NCBI GenBank assembly: GCA_947001705.1
Contig: CAMQHT010000002.1
Coordinates: forward strand, 25,702 to 89,701
Length of the DNA stretch: 64,000 nucleotides
DNA from: an uncultured Collinsella sp.
GTDB lineage: Bacteria > Actinomycetota > Coriobacteriia > Coriobacteriales > Coriobacteriaceae
Direction: 5' to 3'
Positions 6,519 through 64,000 of the stretch are shown here, piece after piece. Position 1 is the first letter of the stretch. The number at the start of each line of letters is the position of its first letter. The translations under genes and the position numbers were made by a program. Below the pieces are notes generated by a model. The model saw nothing but the letters and a program-made list of their open reading frames with translations. It searched no databases and had not been told where the DNA came from.

Positions 6519-6534
6519 TTAACCCTGCGGAAAC
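6519..6534 (+). promoter_or_regulatory. GlnR-like box upstream of the glnA homologue
   Basis: ttaac-cctgcg-gaaac fits the actinobacterial GlnR a-site/N6/b-site layout; a similar site is at 63590. Confidence 0.6.
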
Positions 6535-6599
6535 ATTTTTCTGCGATAGTATCTGCGATATAGACCAGTCGAAACCCGCCCGAAAGAAAGGGGAGCGAC

Positions 6600-7937
6600 A
6601 TGAACCAGCAGAACATCGATTACGTACTCCGCTCCGTAGAGCAGCGTGATATCCGCTTTGTGCGTCTGTGGTTTGTCGACATTCTCGGCCGCCTCAAAAA
6701 CTTTGCTATTAGCCCCGAGGACCTCGAGGTCGCTTTTGAGGAGGGCATTGGCTTTGACGGCTCGGCCATCGAGGGCTTTGCCACGCCCGAGGAAGCCGAC
6801 ATGCTGGCGTTCCCTGATGCCTCGACCTTCCAGATTTTGCCGTGGCGTCCGAGCCACAACGGCGTCGCCCGTGTGTTTTGCGACGTATGCACCCCCGATT
6901 GCAAGCCCTTCGCCGGCGACCCGCGCGATGCCCTGCGCCGCATGTTCCACAAGGCCGAGAAGGCCGGCTACCTACTCAACGTTGGTGCCGAGCTGGAGTA
7001 TTACTACTTCCCCGACGAGCACACGCCCGAGCCGCTCGACAACGTGGGCTACTTCGATCTTTCGGTGAGCGATGCCGCCCGCGACCTGCGCCGCAACACG
7101 GTCCTCACGCTCGAGAAGATGTCCGTGCCCGTGGAGTACACCTTCCACGCCGCCGGTCGCTCGCAGCACGGCATGAGCCTGCGCCACGCCGAGGCCCTGA
7201 GCATGTCCGACGCCATCACCACGGCCAAGCTCATCATTAAGCAGCAGGCTTACGAGAGCGGTTGCCACGCCTCCTTTATGCCCAAGCCGTTGGCAGGCGA
7301 AGACGGCAGCGCTATGTTCCTGTGCCAGTCGCTATTCGACCACGACGGCAACAACGTCTTTTGGGGCGAGGACGACGAGAAGTACCACCTCTCCGATATC
7401 GCCAAGCACTACATGGCCGGCATCCTGGCGCACGCGCGCGAGATCAGCGCCATCACCAACCCCACGGTCAACTCGTACAAGCGCATTACCACGGGCGGCG
7501 ACTCCGTGCCGCAGTACGCCACGTGGGGCCTGCGCAACCGCGCGAGTATGGTCCGCATTCCGGTCTACAAGCCCGGCAAGCAGCTGTCCACGCGCATCGA
7601 GCTGCGCAGTCCCGATCCCATGGCCAACCCGTACCTGGTCAACGCCGTCACGCTGGCGGCTGGTCTGGACGGCATCGAGCGCAAGCTGGAGCTCCCGCCC
7701 GAGGCCACGGCCGAGACACTCAAGCTTACCGACCGTCAGATGGTTGAGGCCGGCTATACGCCGCTGCCGCGCTCGCTCAAAGAGGCGCTCGACGTGTTTG
7801 AGGACTCGCAGTTTATGAAGGATGCCCTCGGCGAGCACATCCACAGCTTCTTCCTCAAAAAGAAGCGCGACGAATGGCATAAGTTTGAGTCCACGATCAC
7901 CGAGTGGGAGATCAAGCACTACCTGGCGAACTCCTAA
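6600..7937 (+). CDS. glnA: Type I glutamine synthetase homologue with a degenerate active site (probable pseudo-enzyme)
   Basis: Full-length GS-I fold (FDGSAIEGF, ELEYY, FMPKP, NSYKR, RIELRSPDP), but HHEV..GQHE reads FHAA..SQHG and NGSGMH reads DGSAMF. Confidence 0.88.
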   Translation: MNQQNIDYVLRSVEQRDIRFVRLWFVDILGRLKNFAISPEDLEVAFEEGIGFDGSAIEGFATPEEADMLAFPDASTFQILPWRPSHNGVARVFCDVCTPDCKPFAGDPRDALRRMFHKAEKAGYLLNVGAELEYYYFPDEHTPEPLDNVGYFDLSVSDAARDLRRNTVLTLEKMSVPVEYTFHAAGRSQHGMSLRHAEALSMSDAITTAKLIIKQQAYESGCHASFMPKPLAGEDGSAMFLCQSLFDHDGNNVFWGEDDEKYHLSDIAKHYMAGILAHAREISAITNPTVNSYKRITTGGDSVPQYATWGLRNRASMVRIPVYKPGKQLSTRIELRSPDPMANPYLVNAVTLAAGLDGIERKLELPPEATAETLKLTDRQMVEAGYTPLPRSLKEALDVFEDSQFMKDALGEHIHSFFLKKKRDEWHKFESTITEWEIKHYLANS

Positions 7938-7987
7938 TCACGCTGGCTTGTTCCAGTACGATTGAGCTCATTTCCTTGGAGGCCGAT

Positions 7988-8650
7988 ATGTCCGAAAAGA
8001 GTGCCCTGTTCATGGCGCGCACGACGCGCTTCCACGAGTTTGCCCGCAGCTTGACGACTACCCTGGGTGTCGAGGTGAGCCTGGCAACCCCTGATTCGCC
8101 AACTGCGGCGCACGACTTTGACCTGCTGATTCTCGATTCCGATGGCATCCGCAGCGACCGCATCGATCAGATTGCCAAGTGGCTTGACGACCGCGGCGGC
8201 GTTCCCATGCTGGTGATCGTCGACGACGAGGCGCTCGGCACCCTGCGCCTGCCGAATCACGCGCATGCCGACTTTGTATGCCCCACGGCGACGCCCAACG
8301 AGCTCAAGGCTCGCGCGCAGCGCCTGATGGGCGAGGAGGAGACCGTCACCGCCGACGATGTGCTCAACATCGATAACCTCGAGATCAACCTGGCTACCTA
8401 CCAGGTGACGCTCGATAACGAGCCCATCGACCTGACGCTGATGGAGTACTCGCTGCTGAGCTTTTTGGCGACGCACCCCAACCGCGCCTACAGCCGCGAG
8501 GTGCTGCTGCACCGCGTGTGGGGCTTTGAGTACTGCGGCGGCACGCGCACCGTCGACGTGCACATCCGACGCATCCGCTCCAAGGTGGGCCCGCAGATCG
8601 CGGCACACATCACCACCGTCCGCGGCGTGGGCTATCTGTTTAAGGACTAG
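7988..8650 (+). CDS. glnR: GlnR-like orphan OmpR-family response regulator
   Basis: wHTH DLTLMEYSLL..SREVLLHRVWGFEYCGGTRTVDVHIRRIRSK matches actinobacterial GlnR; atypical receiver; no kinase nearby; follows the glnA homologue. Confidence 0.75.
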   Translation: MSEKSALFMARTTRFHEFARSLTTTLGVEVSLATPDSPTAAHDFDLLILDSDGIRSDRIDQIAKWLDDRGGVPMLVIVDDEALGTLRLPNHAHADFVCPTATPNELKARAQRLMGEEETVTADDVLNIDNLEINLATYQVTLDNEPIDLTLMEYSLLSFLATHPNRAYSREVLLHRVWGFEYCGGTRTVDVHIRRIRSKVGPQIAAHITTVRGVGYLFKD

Positions 8651-8687: not shown

Positions 8688-8858
8688 TTTTGACGCAGGT
8701 GCGGGTTTCTTTCGAGTTTGCAGCAGAACTTAAGCCTTCCTAAAAGATTGCGTTCTCGTACACGTACGCCCGCATATTGGGGTACAACTCAACGTGAACA
8801 ATGATGGCCCGCCACATGTTTGGCGGGCCTTTGGTTATTTGACGAAAGGATCGCAGCT

Positions 8859-57556: not shown

Positions 57557-58921
57557 CTAGTTCTTCAGCGAGTTCAGCGGCGCTGGGAAGCGTCCACCGC
57601 GATGGGCAAGCACGGTGCCGGCGTTGGGGTTCACCGGCATGATGGGTGCACGGCCGAACAGGCCGCCGTACTCGACGCAGTCACCCACGCCCTTGCCGAT
57701 GGCGGGAATCACGCGGACGGCCGTGGTCTTGTTGTTGATGACGCCGATGGCCATCTCGTCGGCGATGATGCCGGCGATGGTCTCGACCGGGGTGTCGCCG
57801 GGGATGGCGATCATGTCCAGGCCAACGGAGCACACGCAGGTCATGGCCTCGAGCTTCTCGAGCGAAAGCGCACCGGCCTCGACGGCGGCGATCATGCCGG
57901 CGTCCTCGGACACGGGGATAAAGGCGCCGGAAAGACCGCCCACGCTGGAGCTGGCCATGACGCCGCCCTTCTTGACGGCATCGTTGAGCATGGCGAGCGC
58001 GCAGGTCGTGCCCGGGCCACCGCAGGTGCCCACGCCGATGATCTCGAGGATGCGCGCGACGGAGTCGCCGATGGCAGGCGTGGGAGCCAGCGACAGGTCG
58101 ACGATGCCCTTCTCGACACCCAGACGATGGGCGGCCTCGCGGCTCATGAGCTCGCCGGCACGGGTGATCTTAAAGGCGGTCTGCTTAATCTTTTCGGCGA
58201 CTTCCATCATCGAGGCGGAATCGGGCAGCGTCTCCAAGGCTGCGGCCATAACGCCGGGGCCCGAGACGCCTACGTTGATGACGGCGTCGGCCTCGCCACC
58301 GCCGTGGACGGCGCCCGCCATAAACGGGGAGTCCTCGACCATGTTGGCAAAGCAGACAAACTTGGAAGCGCCGACGGAATCCTGGTCGGCCGTGAGTTTA
58401 GCGGCATCGATGATGGTCTGGGCGGCCATGAGCACGGCATCCATGTTGATACCGGCGCGCAGGCTGGCGACGTTGACGCTGGAGCAGACGCGGCTCGTGG
58501 TGGCGAGTGCCTGGGGGATGGACTGGATAACGCGGCGATCGGCGTCGCCGATGCCCTTCTGGACGAGCGCGGAGAAGCCGCCCAGGTAATCGATGCCGAG
58601 CGTCTCGGCCGCGCGGTCGAGGGCGTGCGCGATGGGGGTGAGGTCCTCATCCTTGCAGCACGCGGCGATCTGGGCCACCGGGGTGACGGAAACGCGCTTG
58701 TTGACGATGGGGATACCGTACTCGCGCTCGAGGTTCTCGGCGGTCTCGACCAGATGCTCAGCCGTGTGCGTCACGTGGTCGTAGATCTTCGTGCACATGC
58801 GGTCGAGGTTCTCGTCACCGCAACCCATGAGCGAAACACCCATGGTGATGGTCCTGATGTCGAGGTTCTGCTCCTCAACCATGCCGCGGGTTTCCGCGAT
58901 TTCTGCGGGCGTGATCGCCAT
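57557..58921 (-). CDS. DUF711/UPF0210 (PFL-like) family protein
   Basis: [68 protein letters not shown]. Confidence 0.92.
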
Positions 58922-59029
58922 CCTTGCGCTCCTATCTGCCAAAACGAGCATAGTCTTTTCTATTCTAACGTGCCGCACGTGCCAAGTGGCGCATGCGGCA
59001 CGTTTTGGTGCTCGGTTGTTTCCGTTGTG

Positions 59030-61588
59030 TTACTGCCCAAAGACCTCTTCGGCGATGCGCGCGCTTTCGGCGGCGTCCTTGGCGTAGTAGTCCGCGCCGA
59101 TCTGCTTGGCGTATTCGGGGGTGAGCACGGCGCCGCCTACGATGATCTTGACGCCCGGAGCCTCGGCATGGAGCAACTTGATGGTCTCTTCCATGGCGAC
59201 GACCGTGGTGGTCATAAGCGCCGAGAGGCCGACGAGCTTGATGTCACGCTCCCGCACGGTCTTGAGCACCTCTTGCGGGTCGACGTCGCGGCCTAGGTCA
59301 AAGACGGTATAGCCGTAGTTATCGAGCAGCATCTTGACGATGTTCTTACCGATGTCGTGGATGTCGCCCTTGACGGTGGCCACGCAGATCTTGCCCTTGT
59401 CGGCGATCTCGCCGGCGGGCATCAGGCGCTTGATGGTGTCGAAGCCCACGCGTGCGGCTTCGGCCGAGGCCATGAGTTGCGGCAAGAAGAACTTGCCCTG
59501 GTCAAAGAGGACGCCCACCTCGTCGAGGGCGGGGATAAAGTGGTTGTTGATAAGGTCCATGGCGTCGTGGTCTGCCAGCAGACGCTCGGTCTCGGCAGCG
59601 ATCTCGCCTTTGCGGCCCGAGACGACCATGCGACGAATCGGGTCGTCGTTGCCGTCGGTGCCGGCGGTGCCGGCAGCGGGCACGGTGTCGGTCGATGCGG
59701 CCTGAGCCGCTGCCGGGTTGGCGGCGATCTTATACGGATCGGTCCAGCCGGCATAGCGCTCGATGTATCCGGTCGAGCCCTCGTCCTCAACGCTCAGGAC
59801 GCGATAGCTGTAGACGGTGTCCATAAAGCGCTTGGAGCCCGGGTTCATGATGGGGGCATCGAGGCCCGCGCCAAAGGCGGCGGCCAAAAAGACCGAGCCC
59901 AGCAGCGGGCGGGCAGGCAGACCAAAGCTGATGTTCGACACGCCGAGCGCGCATTTGACGCCCAGGCGCTCCTTGCACAGGGACATGGCGCGCAGGATCT
60001 GCTCGGCCTGGCGTTGATTGGTCGAGGCGGTCATGACCAGGCAGTCGATGAGGATACGGTCCGGGCCGATGCCGTAGCGGGCAGCCTCGGCCACGATGCG
60101 CTCGGCGATGGCAAAGCGGGCCTCGGCGGTATCGGGGATGCCGCCTTCGTCGAGCGTAAGGCCGACAACGTTGGTGCCGTAGTGGGCGACCAGCGGGAAG
60201 ATCTCGTCCATGATCTGCTGCTTGCCGTTGACCGAGTTGATGATGGGCTTGCCGGCGTAGCGACGTACGGCGGCCTCGACGGCGGCGGGGTCGGTGGAGT
60301 CGATCTGCAGCGGCAGCAGCGTGGAGCCTTGGAGCTGCTCGGTGGCCTGTTGGATAATCTTGACCTCGTCGATCTCGGGCAGGCCCACGTTGACGTCCAG
60401 GATGTCGGCGCCCTGCTCCTGCTGGCTGATGCCCTGGCTCACCACGTAGTCCAGGTCGCCGTCGCGCAGGGCCTGCTGCAGGCGCTTTTTGCCGGTGGGG
60501 TTGATGCGCTCGCCGATGACGGCGATCTTGTGGCCGTCGCAGGGGAGGTCCACCACGGTCTGGGCGCTTGTGACCGACATGCTGGGCTTGCGGTGGCGCG
60601 GACTGGGCGTGTGGTTATCGATAAGCGTGCGCAGCGCTGCCATGTGCGCCGGCGTGGTGCCGCAGCAGCCGCCCACGACGCTTACGCCGTCCTCAATCAT
60701 ACCGGCGACGGCCACGGCGTACTCGGGCGCCTGGATATCAAAGACGGTGTTGCCGTCGTCGTCCACGTGGGGCAGTCCTGCGTTGGCCTGCACCATAACG
60801 GGCTTGTCCGTAACGGTGAGCATGCGAGCGGCGAGTCCTCGGAGCTCGGCCGGTCCCTGGCTGCAGTTGATGCCCAAAACGTCGGCGCCGATGGCATCGA
60901 GCGTGATGGCGGCAACCTCGGGACTCGTGCCCAGGAAGGTGCGACCGTCTTCCTCAAAGGTCATGGTGGCAAAGACGGGCAGGTCGGAGTTCTCGCGGCA
61001 GGCGAGGACGGCCGCCTTGATCTCGGCCAGGTCGGTCATAGTCTCGATAATAAAGAGGTCCACGCCCGCGGCGACGCCGGCGCGCACTTCCTCGGCAAAG
61101 AGGTCATAGGCCTCGTCGAAGCTGAGGGTACCCAAGGGGCGAAGCAGCGCGCCGATGGGGCCGATATCGCCGGCGACGTAGTGGGCGCCGGCCGCGCGGG
61201 CGCAGGCGACAGCGGCGGCAAAGACATCTGCCACGGTGGCGGTACCGTCGAGCTTGTGGGCGTTGGCGCCAAAGGTGTTGGCGGTGATCACGTCGCAGCC
61301 GGCTTCGACGTACTGACGCTGGATGTCGGTAATGACCTGAGGCTCCTCAAAGTTGAGCAGCTCGGGCAGGGCGCCGGCCTTCATGCCGGCCGCCTGCAGC
61401 ATGGTACCCATGCCGCCGTCGAACAGCAGGTGTCCCGTGCCCTCGATGGCGGCGCGCAGACGATCGTCCTTAATGCGAAGGTCGTCGATCGTGCGCGTCT
61501 TGTATGCAGCTCCGTTGCGGCGCGCAGCATCAACAGGCGCCGCCAATGCAGTGCCGTCAGAATCATGAGTGATAAGCGGAGTAAACAT
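59030..61588 (-). CDS. metH: Cobalamin-dependent methionine synthase core (Hcy-binding, pterin-binding, cap and B12 domains), without the activation domain
   Basis: FDGGMGT, GINCSQGP, GGCCGTTP, IGERINPTGKK, IDSTD, GVSNISFG, ATVKGDIHDIGKNIV. Confidence 0.93.
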   Translation of the reverse strand: MFTPLITHDSDGTALAAPVDAARRNGAAYKTRTIDDLRIKDDRLRAAIEGTGHLLFDGGMGTMLQAAGMKAGALPELLNFEEPQVITDIQRQYVEAGCDVITANTFGANAHKLDGTATVADVFAAAVACARAAGAHYVAGDIGPIGALLRPLGTLSFDEAYDLFAEEVRAGVAAGVDLFIIETMTDLAEIKAAVLACRENSDLPVFATMTFEEDGRTFLGTSPEVAAITLDAIGADVLGINCSQGPAELRGLAARMLTVTDKPVMVQANAGLPHVDDDGNTVFDIQAPEYAVAVAGMIEDGVSVVGGCCGTTPAHMAALRTLIDNHTPSPRHRKPSMSVTSAQTVVDLPCDGHKIAVIGERINPTGKKRLQQALRDGDLDYVVSQGISQQEQGADILDVNVGLPEIDEVKIIQQATEQLQGSTLLPLQIDSTDPAAVEAAVRRYAGKPIINSVNGKQQIMDEIFPLVAHYGTNVVGLTLDEGGIPDTAEARFAIAERIVAEAARYGIGPDRILIDCLVMTASTNQRQAEQILRAMSLCKERLGVKCALGVSNISFGLPARPLLGSVFLAAAFGAGLDAPIMNPGSKRFMDTVYSYRVLSVEDEGSTGYIERYAGWTDPYKIAANPAAAQAASTDTVPAAGTAGTDGNDDPIRRMVVSGRKGEIAAETERLLADHDAMDLINNHFIPALDEVGVLFDQGKFFLPQLMASAEAARVGFDTIKRLMPAGEIADKGKICVATVKGDIHDIGKNIVKMLLDNYGYTVFDLGRDVDPQEVLKTVRERDIKLVGLSALMTTTVVAMEETIKLLHAEAPGVKIIVGGAVLTPEYAKQIGADYYAKDAAESARIAEEVFGQ

Positions 61589-63589: not shown

Positions 63590-63605
63590 GTAATGTTGCG
63601 GAAAC
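63590..63605 (+). promoter_or_regulatory. GlnR-like box upstream of the type III GS
   Basis: gtaat-gttgcg-gaaac; shares tgcggaaaca with the site at 6519-6534. Confidence 0.6.
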
Positions 63606-63684
63606 ACGACGAGCCTAATCTATGACTCGTTCGTTAGTAATCAACACCGCTTCTCACGCGGTGCCGATACGAAGGGAGTTCCGT

Positions 63685-64000
63685 ATGGCCGAACTTACTG
63701 ACCGCTTCGGGACCATGGTGTTCTCTGAGGAAGTCATGAAGGACTACCTCCCCAAGGACATTTGGAAGCGCCTTGCTGCAACCCTCGAGGACGGTGAGCC
63801 GCTTGACCTGGATGTGGCCAACGCCGTTGCCCACGCCATGAAGGTCTGGGCCATCTCCAAGGGTGCTACGCACTACGCGCACTGGTTCCAGCCGCTTTCG
63901 GGCATTACTTCCGAGAAGCACGACAGCTTCCTCGAGCCCAACCACGACGGCACCGCCATTACCAAGTTTACGGGCAAGAACCTCATCCAGGGCGAGCCGG
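63685..64000 (+). CDS. glnN: Type III glutamine synthetase, 5' part (runs off the window)
   Basis: [35 protein letters not shown]; aaggga RBS. Confidence 0.92.

What the first reader, a model, noticed from the sequence alone, without database searches (positions are those of the whole stretch)
6600..8650. Probable pseudo-glutamine synthetase paired with an orphan GlnR: candidate undescribed nitrogen-sensing module
Seen in sequence: the ORF is a full-length GS-I. Aligned by eye to Bacillus subtilis GS (numbering recalled), it has lost three of the six metal ligands: E189 to Ala (codon 7149), E196 to Gly (7170) and H245 to Phe (7317). N240 is Asp, and the GYEAP flap with E304 reads GGDSVP. D53, E132, E134, R298, R316, R321, E333 and R335 are kept. 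It lies 50 bp upstream of a GlnR-type regulator with an atypical receiver and no kinase, and a separate type III GS starts at 63685. Established: GS needs both metal sites; actinobacterial GlnA2-4 gamma-glutamyl ligases keep the metal ligands; in Bacillus, feedback-inhibited GS controls the MerR-type GlnR/TnrA by direct binding. Inference: this protein is a catalytically dead oligomeric sensor or scaffold for an OmpR-type GlnR, while GS-III does the assimilation.
Basis: partly seen in the sequence, partly recalled or inferred. Interest (0 to 1): 0.88.

Follow-up and report, generated by a model that had tools for sequence, protein, structure and literature searches.

The report
Dead glutamine synthetase kept beside GlnR
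This common gut bacterium (Collinsella) keeps, under strong selection, a full-length glutamine synthetase that has lost the metal sites needed for catalysis; it sits in one operon with the nitrogen regulator GlnR, so it is probably a nitrogen-status sensor, while a second, intact (type III) enzyme makes the glutamine.

Summary
The ORF at 6600-7937 is a full-length GS-I-alpha (Pfam 1e-100; AF2 model TM 0.86 to solved GS). It has Ala, Gly and Phe at B. subtilis E189, E196 and H245, a wrecked N240 loop and flap, and no feedback Arg62. D53, E134, E333 and the four active-site arginines are kept.

This is not strain-private decay. All 80 Collinsella species and all 64 Atopobiaceae species checked lack the same three ligands. 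The two families form one clade on a long stem branch. dN/dS inside Collinsella is about 0.02.

GS-III is present in 143 of the roughly 145 sampled genomes of the order and in only 2 of about 156 genomes in the rest of the class. Here it keeps every catalytic motif.

The OmpR-type GlnR gene lies 50 nt downstream (79/79 Collinsella, 78/78 Eggerthellaceae). In Atopobiaceae it lies 3.4-5.5 kb downstream, behind an inserted GlnHPQ-type transporter.

A GlnR-type box precedes the dead glnA, glnN, gdhA, gltB and transporter genes, and is conserved across families.

The dead enzyme and the takeover by GS-III are well supported. A sensor role for GlnR is inferred, not shown. I found no paper describing this.

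The parts
6519..6535 (+). GlnR-type operator: TTAAC-n6-GAAAC(A), two 5-nt sites 11 bp apart, immediately upstream of the -10 region
   Evidence: 3 matches in the window against 0.04 expected. The same architecture is conserved upstream of the GS-I gene in Coriobacteriaceae, Atopobiaceae and Eggerthellaceae.
6540..6560 (+). Promoter -10 region with TCTGCGATA twice at a 12-bp period. It corresponds to the conserved TGnGAnAnAGT element of related promoters.
6600..7937 (+). Pseudo-glutamine synthetase (GS-I-alpha fold, 445 aa). Metal ligands are lost at codons 7149 (A184), 7170 (G191) and 7317 (F240). Feedback Arg is lost at 6783 (T62). The N240 loop and flap are degenerate.
7988..8650 (+). glnR: atypical OmpR-type response regulator (GlnR family). 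It has no acidic pair and no conserved Lys. Co-transcription is likely: a 50-nt gap with a GGAGG ribosome-binding site and no terminator.
8806..8829 (+). GC-rich hairpin followed by a T-rich tail: likely end of the glnA*-glnR operon.
63590..63606 (+). Second GlnR-type box, GTAAT-n6-GAAAC(A), upstream of glnN.
   Evidence: The same box plus -10 architecture is found upstream of glnN in three families.
63685..64000 (+). Start of glnN (type III glutamine synthetase, 695 aa from this ATG; runs off the window). All catalytic motifs are intact.
59017..59033 (-). Third box of the same type, upstream of a DUF711 gene (57557-58978, minus strand).

Best explanation
The gene encodes a GS-I-alpha that stopped being an enzyme and was kept as a regulatory protein of the nitrogen circuit.

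Shown:
- An ancestor of the order Coriobacteriales gained GS-III.
- After that, GS-I lost constraint on its active site in steps. N240, the flap Tyr and Arg62 are already lost or variable in Eggerthellaceae. In the common ancestor of Coriobacteriaceae and Atopobiaceae, two of three n1 ligands (E189, E196) and one n2 ligand (H245) were also lost.
- The protein has since been held under purifying selection as strong as that on glnR.
- It remains the first gene of a GlnR-box-controlled glnA*-glnR operon.
- That operon shares its operator with glnN, gdhA, gltB and amino-acid transporter genes.

Inferred:
- It no longer makes glutamine (my estimate about 0.9).
- It still binds an anionic metabolite. 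The four active-site arginines, E134, E333 and D53 are invariant in 144 of 144 species, and the 2-oxoglutarate pocket of M. mazei GlnA1 is intact in 80 of 80 Collinsella.
- It passes nitrogen/carbon status to transcription, most likely by binding GlnR directly (about 0.35-0.4 for that last step).
- Being made from the same transcript as GlnR, it would form a feedback loop on the regulon. GS-III and GOGAT/GDH do the assimilation.
For: - Ligand loss.
- Fixed in 80/80 Collinsella and 64/64 Atopobiaceae species.
- The two families form one clade, SH-aLRT 100, stem length 0.39.
- dN/dS is 0.023 at dS 0.1-0.3, against 0.015 for glnR.
- 94 of 145 columns invariant in canonical relatives are still at least 90% conserved. 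Losses cluster in the metal/ATP strands, the H245 loop and the flap.
- The fold is intact: pTM 0.86, TM 0.85-0.86 to GS-I-alpha structures.
- Only two GS genes are in the genome. GS-III is intact.
- GS-III is in 143 of the roughly 145 sampled genomes of the order and 2 of about 156 genomes outside it.
- Synteny with glnR: 79/79 Collinsella, 78/78 Eggerthellaceae, 42/50 Atopobiaceae.
- Regulon: 18 of 21 genome-wide box hits are intergenic. They lie upstream of glnA*, glnN, gdhA (twice), gltB and two substrate-binding-protein genes.
- The box is conserved upstream of both GS genes across families.
- The 2-OG pocket residues come from PMC11957540 and were mapped.
- One 98%-complete Atopobiaceae genome lacks both the GS-I gene and the GlnR orthologue.
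Against: - There are no protein-interaction, ligand-binding, activity or expression data.
- Adjacency can reflect co-regulation alone, and the glnA-glnR pair predates the inactivation (canonical GS-I of other orders also has it).
- The Bacillus precedent depends on Arg62 and a MerR-type C-tail, and both are absent here.
- The 2-OG pocket is not universal in the dead clade: R26 is Gln in 21 of 64 Atopobiaceae, and one genus has F24Y, R87K/E and R173Y.
- Few new clade-specific invariant surface positions were found that would mark a new interface.
- The co-loss in one genome could be a single deletion.
Confidence: 0.5

Rival explanations
1. It is a non-catalytic regulator, but its target is not GlnR. 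It could modulate GS-III, GOGAT, or the PII protein GlnK and AmtB (M. mazei GS binds GlnK1), or act as a metabolite buffer. On this reading the link to glnR is only shared transcription.
For: The same conservation evidence applies. The genome has amtB-glnK. The closest solved relatives include a GS-GlnK1 complex (8tge). The glnA-glnR pair predates the inactivation.
Against: Synteny with glnR has persisted over more than 200 species and survived the insertion of a transporter in Atopobiaceae. No linkage to glnK, glnN or gltB was seen.
Confidence: 0.22
2. It is still an enzyme with changed chemistry, for example a one-metal or metal-independent gamma-glutamyl ligase or hydrolase, or an amide-transfer enzyme that uses the retained arginines, E134, E333 and D53.
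For: The substrate-binding arginines and D53 are invariant. GS-like proteins have repeatedly acquired other substrates (review PMC11800386). Eggerthellaceae copies keep their metals but have altered substrate residues.
Against: All characterised GS-family ligases that I know of keep both metal sites (from memory, not checked here). Here 2 of 3 n1 ligands and 1 of 3 n2 ligands are gone, with E132 also lost in all 64 Atopobiaceae. No compensating acidic residues appear. Residues near the ATP site also changed (H190F/Y, Y217A, G183S in M. mazei numbering).
Confidence: 0.13
3. It is a decaying relic with no function of its own, tolerated because its reading frame or promoter is needed to express glnR.
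For: One f4 genome has a frameshifted copy with glnR intact, and a few genomes lost the gene.
Against: dN/dS is about 0.02 over 445 codons. The gene is full-length with no stops in about 290 genomes. 65% of canonical-invariant sites are retained after family-level divergence. It is kept in Atopobiaceae, where glnR is 3.4-5.5 kb away.
Confidence: 0.03

Closest known systems
Bacillus subtilis-type GS-GlnR/TnrA circuit (feedback-inhibited GS-I-alpha binds the MerR-type regulators; PMC9249791; PDB 7tf9, 7tfa, 4s0r)
   Same: A GS-I-alpha and a regulator called GlnR are encoded in one autoregulated operon. GS acts as the nitrogen sensor for a transcription factor. The folds match (TM 0.86).
   Different: In Bacillus the GS is the working enzyme and signals through glutamine bound at Arg62. 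Here the metal sites and Arg62 are gone. The regulator is an unrelated OmpR-type protein without the C-tail that enters the GS cavity. The gene order is reversed (glnA then glnR). Binding is untested.
Actinobacterial GlnR (orphan atypical OmpR-family regulator of Streptomyces, Mycobacterium and Amycolatopsis; PDB 8hig/8hih; review PMC10704036)
   Same: These are the best structural relatives of the regulator. The receiver is degenerate and there is no kinase. The gTnAc-n6-GaAAc-type boxes precede glnA-like, gdhA, gltB and transporter genes.
   Different: In the model actinomycetes glnR is not reported beside glnA (from memory, not checked here), and its signal input is stated to be unknown. 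Here it is co-transcribed with a dead GS. The Pfam GlnR_1st match is below cut-off (22 against 27 bits).
2-oxoglutarate-activated GS-I-alpha of methanogens (M. mazei GlnA1, 8s59; PMC11957540)
   Same: It is the closest solved sequence (E 5e-118, 44% identity). The pocket residues F24, R26, R87, R172, R173 and S189 (S or T) are kept in Collinsella.
   Different: GlnA1 is an active enzyme switched on by 2-OG. Here there is nothing catalytic to switch on. The pocket is partly eroded in some Atopobiaceae.
Type I GS next to the ANTAR regulator NitR in Clostridia (C. thermocellum glnA deletion deregulates nitrogen metabolism, Rydzak 2017, as cited in PMC9888227). Earlier notes of this scan report dead GS-I copies there.
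   Same: An anaerobe has GS-III as the working enzyme plus a GS-I-alpha copy encoded beside a nitrogen regulator. The loss of metal ligands recurs in several lineages (about 20 of 128 representatives).
   Different: This is a different lineage: the Collinsella protein nests inside Coriobacteriia GS-I. The partner class also differs, a DNA-binding OmpR-type regulator instead of an RNA-binding antiterminator.
Lengsin (vertebrate lens GS-I-like pseudoenzyme, PDB 2j9i)
   Same: A GS-I fold retained without GS activity. It is a distant hit (E 3e-8).
   Different: It is a eukaryotic structural lens protein with no regulatory context and has an independent origin.

Membership tests
Catalytically active glutamine synthetase type I (GlnA) | Beta-grasp N domain plus catalytic C domain, full length | tested here: met
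   Pfam PF03951 and PF00120. AF2 model TM 0.85-0.86 to GS-I-alpha structures.
Catalytically active glutamine synthetase type I (GlnA) | Score above the curated equivalog cut-off (TIGR00653) | tested here: not met
   398 bits against a cut-off of 429.15.
Catalytically active glutamine synthetase type I (GlnA) | Six metal ligands (Bsu E132, E134, E189, E196, H245, E333) | tested here: not met
   E189A, E196G and H245F. The same losses occur in 144 of 144 species of two families.
Catalytically active glutamine synthetase type I (GlnA) | Substrate residues N240, G243 and the E304 flap; arginines R298, R316, R321, R335 | tested here: inconclusive
   N240D, G243A and a degenerate flap. All four arginines are kept.
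Catalytically active glutamine synthetase type I (GlnA) | ATP-dependent glutamine synthesis | not testable with these tools
   Needs an enzyme assay or complementation.
Actinobacterial GlnR (atypical OmpR-type regulator) | C-terminal winged-helix OmpR/PhoB domain, closest to known GlnR | tested here: met
   PF00486 at 2.8e-23. The top PDB hits are GlnR structures 8hig/8hih, ahead of MtrA.
Actinobacterial GlnR (atypical OmpR-type regulator) | GlnR-type N-terminal domain (PF21695) | tested here: inconclusive
   22.4 bits against a cut-off of 27.
Actinobacterial GlnR (atypical OmpR-type regulator) | Degenerate receiver (no acidic pair, no conserved Lys) and no cognate kinase nearby | tested here: met
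   ALFMARTTRF replaces xxDD, and DFVCPTATP replaces DDYxxKP. No kinase ORF lies within about 4 kb.
Actinobacterial GlnR (atypical OmpR-type regulator) | GlnR boxes (gTnAc-n6-GaAAc) before nitrogen-assimilation genes | tested here: met
   Binding by this protein has not been tested.
Bacillus-type GS-GlnR/TnrA sensor complex | Glutamine-feedback Arg62 in GS, and a MerR-type regulator with a C-terminal tail | tested here: not met
   Arg62 is Thr (Thr, Pro, Ala or Ser across the family's representatives). The regulator is OmpR-type.
Bacillus-type GS-GlnR/TnrA sensor complex | Direct GS-regulator binding that changes DNA binding | not testable with these tools
   No complex prediction or experiment was available.
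2-OG-binding GS-I-alpha (M. mazei GlnA1 type) | Allosteric pocket residues F24, R26, S38, R87, R172, R173, S189 | tested here: met
   In the window: F, R, N, R, R, R, T. Five of these positions (F24, R26, R87, R172, R173) were tallied across species and are kept in 80/80 Collinsella; they are partly lost in Atopobiaceae. Binding itself is untested.

The most novel reading that the evidence does not exclude
GS-I is the missing signal input of the OmpR-type GlnR. In Coriobacteriia the ancestral glnA-glnR operon would encode a sensor-regulator pair. Once GS-III took over catalysis, GS-I was free to become a dedicated, non-catalytic metabolite (2-OG) sensor that binds GlnR and sets the whole nitrogen regulon. 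On this reading the Collinsella/Atopobiaceae protein is a natural separation-of-function mutant, and it could show how orphan GlnR senses nitrogen in Actinobacteria more widely.
Probability: 0.3. Interest if true: 0.85.

Novelty: new variant of a known kind. Interest (0 to 1): 0.72.

Why it matters
A 2023 review still describes the nitrogen signal that reaches actinobacterial GlnR, and how it gets there, as unknown (PMC10704036). This locus offers a concrete, testable candidate: a GS-derived protein that can no longer be explained by catalysis, is conserved for a whole family-level radiation, and is made from the same transcript as GlnR.

It also gives a clean evolutionary case of an enzyme turning into a pseudoenzyme after functional replacement, with a step-by-step series: canonical, then Eggerthellaceae, then Coriobacteriaceae plus Atopobiaceae.

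It affects annotation too. Genome-scale metabolic models of very common human gut and vaginal Actinobacteria (Collinsella, Olsenella, Atopobium relatives) that count this gene as a glutamine synthetase are probably wrong. GS-III would be the only GS.

Tried and rejected
- The search for homologous proteins returned only 99-100% identical copies and gave no diversity. I used whole-genome searches instead.
- A strict TnAY-n6-GAAAC search found the box upstream of GS-I in only 11 of 43 relatives. Reading the promoters showed that the real consensus is GnAAC-n6-GnAAC next to the -10.
- I looked for new clade-specific invariant positions that could mark a GlnR interface. Only about eight turned up (G175S, D198E, Y209A, V213I, F116, H263, T289, P366), and they form no obvious patch.
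- The AF2 model adds only that the fold is intact. Complexes cannot be predicted here.
- GlnR of the dead-GS families shares many substitutions against Eggerthellaceae GlnR. This is what phylogeny alone predicts, so I do not count it as co-evolution.
- Literature searches for pseudo-GS, for Collinsella or Coriobacteriia with GlnR, and for catalytically inactive GS found nothing relevant.
- Decay is rejected on dN/dS. Horizontal origin from the clostridial dead GS is rejected by the tree.
Full report
**What is there**

The window comes from a Collinsella genome (record titles). The genome is 2.1 Mb and 99.8% complete.

The ORF at 6600-7937 (+) encodes 445 aa with both GS-I domains (PF03951 and PF00120, 1e-100). 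It falls below NCBIfam's GlnA equivalog cut-off (398 against 429 bits). Its closest solved relatives are GS-I-alpha enzymes: M. mazei 8s59/8tfb at E about 5e-118, then Paenibacillus, Bacillus and Listeria.

An AlphaFold2 model built on 22 relatives has pTM 0.86. It superposes on these structures over the whole length, with TM 0.85-0.86.

**The substitutions**

In the HMMER alignment and my MAFFT alignments:
- SHHEVAPSQHEID reads TFHAAGRSQHGMS, which gives Bsu E189 to Ala and E196 to Gly.
- NGSGMHSN reads DGSAMFLC, which gives N240D, G243A, H245F and H247C.
- PGYEAP reads TGGDSVP.

D53, E132, E134, R298, R316, R321, E333 and R335 are kept.

So two of three n1 ligands and one of three n2 ligands are gone.

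**Not a private decay**

A search of 301 genomes of the class found one homologue in 288 of them, and never a second GS-I in the families discussed. I fetched representatives of 40 genera.
- All 9 Coriobacteriaceae and all 9 Atopobiaceae representatives lack E189, E196 and H245. They carry A/S, then G/A/C, then F/M/L/P at those positions. Many also lack E132.
- Eggerthellaceae, a fourth family (f4) and other orders keep HHE...QHE...GSGMH.

In species-level surveys:
- 80/80 Collinsella have Ala, Gly and Phe at these positions.
- 64/64 Atopobiaceae (Olsenella, Thermophilibacter, Tractidigestivibacter, Atopobium) lack all three, and also have E132K.
- 80 Eggerthellaceae keep the metal ligands. 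But N240 is lost in 80/80, the flap Tyr is lost in about 79/80, and Arg62 is kept in only 31/80.

A maximum-likelihood tree puts the two dead families in one clade (SH-aLRT 100) on a long stem of 0.39, nested inside Coriobacteriia GS-I. That fits one ancient inactivation, not horizontal import.

Inside Collinsella, dN/dS is 0.023 at dS 0.1-0.3. The value for glnR in the same loci is 0.015.

Of 145 alignment columns that are invariant in canonical relatives, 94 are still at least 90% conserved in the dead clade. The 30 lost columns cluster in the metal/ATP strands (M. mazei 183-223), the H245 loop and the flap.

**Who makes glutamine**

The genome has only one other Gln-synt_C gene. It is GS-III, starting at window 63685. 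Aligned to B. fragilis GS-III (3o6x, E 7e-187), it keeps the E-x-E, H-N-E...Q-H-E, NGSGKHNN, R...E flap and R...E-F-R motifs.

The GSIII_N domain is present in 143 of the roughly 145 sampled genomes of the order, and in 2 of about 156 genomes of other orders of the class.

Where GS-III is absent, GS-I is canonical. Where GS-III is present, GS-I takes one of several states:
- Dead (two families).
- Altered at substrate residues (Eggerthellaceae).
- Frameshifted (G090).
- Lost (G031, G238).
- Occasionally canonical (f4).

The pattern is what one expects if GS-III took over assimilation.

GOGAT, GDH, AmtB and PII are also present.

**The regulator and the operon**

The downstream ORF has its ATG at 7988, a GGAGG ribosome-binding site, and a 50-nt gap without a terminator. 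It has an OmpR/PhoB winged helix. Its best PDB relatives are the actinobacterial GlnR structures 8hig/8hih (E 1e-29), ahead of MtrA.

Its receiver lacks the acidic pair (ALFMARTTRF) and the conserved Lys (DFVCPTATP), as in GlnR. The Pfam GlnR_1st match is weak, 22 against 27 bits. No kinase gene lies nearby. A hairpin with a T-rich tail follows at 8806-8829.

The glnA-glnR pair is older than the inactivation:
- glnR is directly downstream in other orders of the class, in f4, and in 78/78 Eggerthellaceae and 79/79 Collinsella.
- In Atopobiaceae it lies on the same strand, 3.4-5.5 kb downstream, in 42 of 50 loci with enough flank.
- In two Atopobiaceae loci examined, a GlnHPQ-type ABC transporter sits between the two genes.

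One 98%-complete Atopobiaceae genome lacks both genes.

**The regulon**

Upstream of the dead glnA lies TTAAC-n6-GAAACA (6519-6535). Upstream of glnN lies GTAAT-n6-GAAACA (63590-63606).

The pattern KWAAY-N6-GWAACA occurs 3 times in the window against 0.04 expected, and 21 times in the genome. Of those 21, 18 are intergenic. They precede the dead glnA, glnN, gdhA (two boxes), gltB, two Peripla_BP_6 binding-protein genes and a DUF711 gene. Inverted copies precede amtB-glnK.

Promoter alignments show the same layout, GnAAC-n6-GnAAC abutting a -10 element. It is conserved upstream of the GS-I gene in Coriobacteriaceae, Atopobiaceae, Eggerthellaceae and beyond. It is also conserved upstream of glnN in three families.

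This is the actinomycete GlnR box layout (PMC10704036). So the dead GS is still wired as a nitrogen gene and is made together with the regulator.

**What it most likely does**

Catalysis of the GS reaction is very unlikely. What remains conserved is informative:
- D53, E134, E333 and the four arginines that hold glutamate and the phosphates are invariant in all 144 species of the dead clade.
- The allosteric 2-oxoglutarate pocket described for M. mazei GlnA1 (F24, R26, R87, R172, R173, S189) is intact in all 80 Collinsella.
- That pocket is eroded in part of the Atopobiaceae: R26Q in 21 of 64, and several changes in one genus.

I read this as a ligand-binding, probably oligomeric protein that reports nitrogen/carbon status.

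GlnR is the most economical target, given the persistent synteny, the shared transcript and the Bacillus precedent of GS controlling a regulator (PMC9249791). But the mechanism cannot be the Bacillus one. Arg62 is gone, and the regulator is unrelated to MerR-type GlnR.

My estimates are:
- Dead for GS chemistry: about 0.9.
- Kept for a non-catalytic role in nitrogen control: about 0.7.
- Direct action on GlnR: about 0.35-0.4.

The rivals are another target (GlnK/AmtB, GS-III), a new chemistry, or a relic. The relic reading is nearly excluded by dN/dS.

**Is it known**

Full-text searches found no description of a dead GS-I in Coriobacteriia, or of GlnR in this class. A 2025 GS review discusses moonlighting and neofunctionalised GS, but no bacterial pseudo-GS. 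The 2023 GlnR review states that the signal and its transmitter are unknown.

Earlier notes of this scan describe a parallel in gut Clostridia: a dead GS-I beside the ANTAR regulator NitR, with GS-III as the enzyme. I did not test those notes.

My own survey of 128 full-length representatives shows that about 20 have lost two or more metal ligands, so the loss is recurrent. The Collinsella lineage is an independent instance with a different class of partner.

**Limits**

There are no expression, activity, binding or complex data. Family f4 was not named. The six metal-ligand assignments follow B. subtilis and Salmonella GS literature recalled from memory, and were checked only by motif identity with solved, active enzymes.

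Noticed in passing
Proteins P0121, P0123 and P0223: The representative library holds giant proteins with many GS-like repeats: 4424 aa with 12 matched stretches, 2757 aa with 6, and 1356 aa with 3, at about 30% identity. They could be real multi-GS proteins or assembly or gene-calling artefacts.
   Followed up: no
Representative proteins P0125-P0267: About 20 of 128 full-length GS-I-alpha-like cluster representatives lack two or more of the six metal ligands. Most of these keep F24, R26, R172 and R173 (the 2-OG pocket). This points to several independent pseudo-GS lineages.
   Followed up: partly
L261-L340, and L048-L069 (Eggerthellaceae): Eggerthellaceae GS-I keeps all metal ligands but has lost N240 (80/80, mostly Pro) and the flap Tyr. 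Arg62 is kept in only 31/80. Many of these genomes carry two GS-III genes. This may be an intermediate or a substrate-shifted enzyme.
   Followed up: partly
L075/L076 (G090:C1:1746613-1747927) and genome G238: One f4 genome has the GS-I gene split into two frames (213 + 275 aa) with glnR intact downstream. One Atopobiaceae genome (98% complete) lacks both the GS-I gene and the GlnR orthologue.
   Followed up: partly
L045:5385-8768 and L047:724-3466: In these two Atopobiaceae loci a polar-amino-acid ABC transporter (SBP_bac_3 with BPD_transp_1, fused into one ORF in L045, plus an ABC_tran ATPase seen in L045) sits between the dead glnA and glnR.
   Followed up: yes
Window 57557-58978 (-), with a box at 59017-59033: A DUF711 (UPF0210) gene carries the same GlnR-type box upstream. 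This suggests that this uncharacterised family belongs to the nitrogen regulon here.
   Followed up: no
Window 6540-6560: TCTGCGATA occurs twice at a 12-bp period across the -10 region of the glnA* promoter. Relatives have a single TGnGAnAnAGT element. This could be a duplicated -10 or a second operator.
   Followed up: no
Own genome C18:33060-33200 (upstream of amtB-glnK): GTTTC-n6-GTTTC (the box in inverted orientation) occurs upstream of amtB. The strict forward pattern did not catch it.
   Followed up: no
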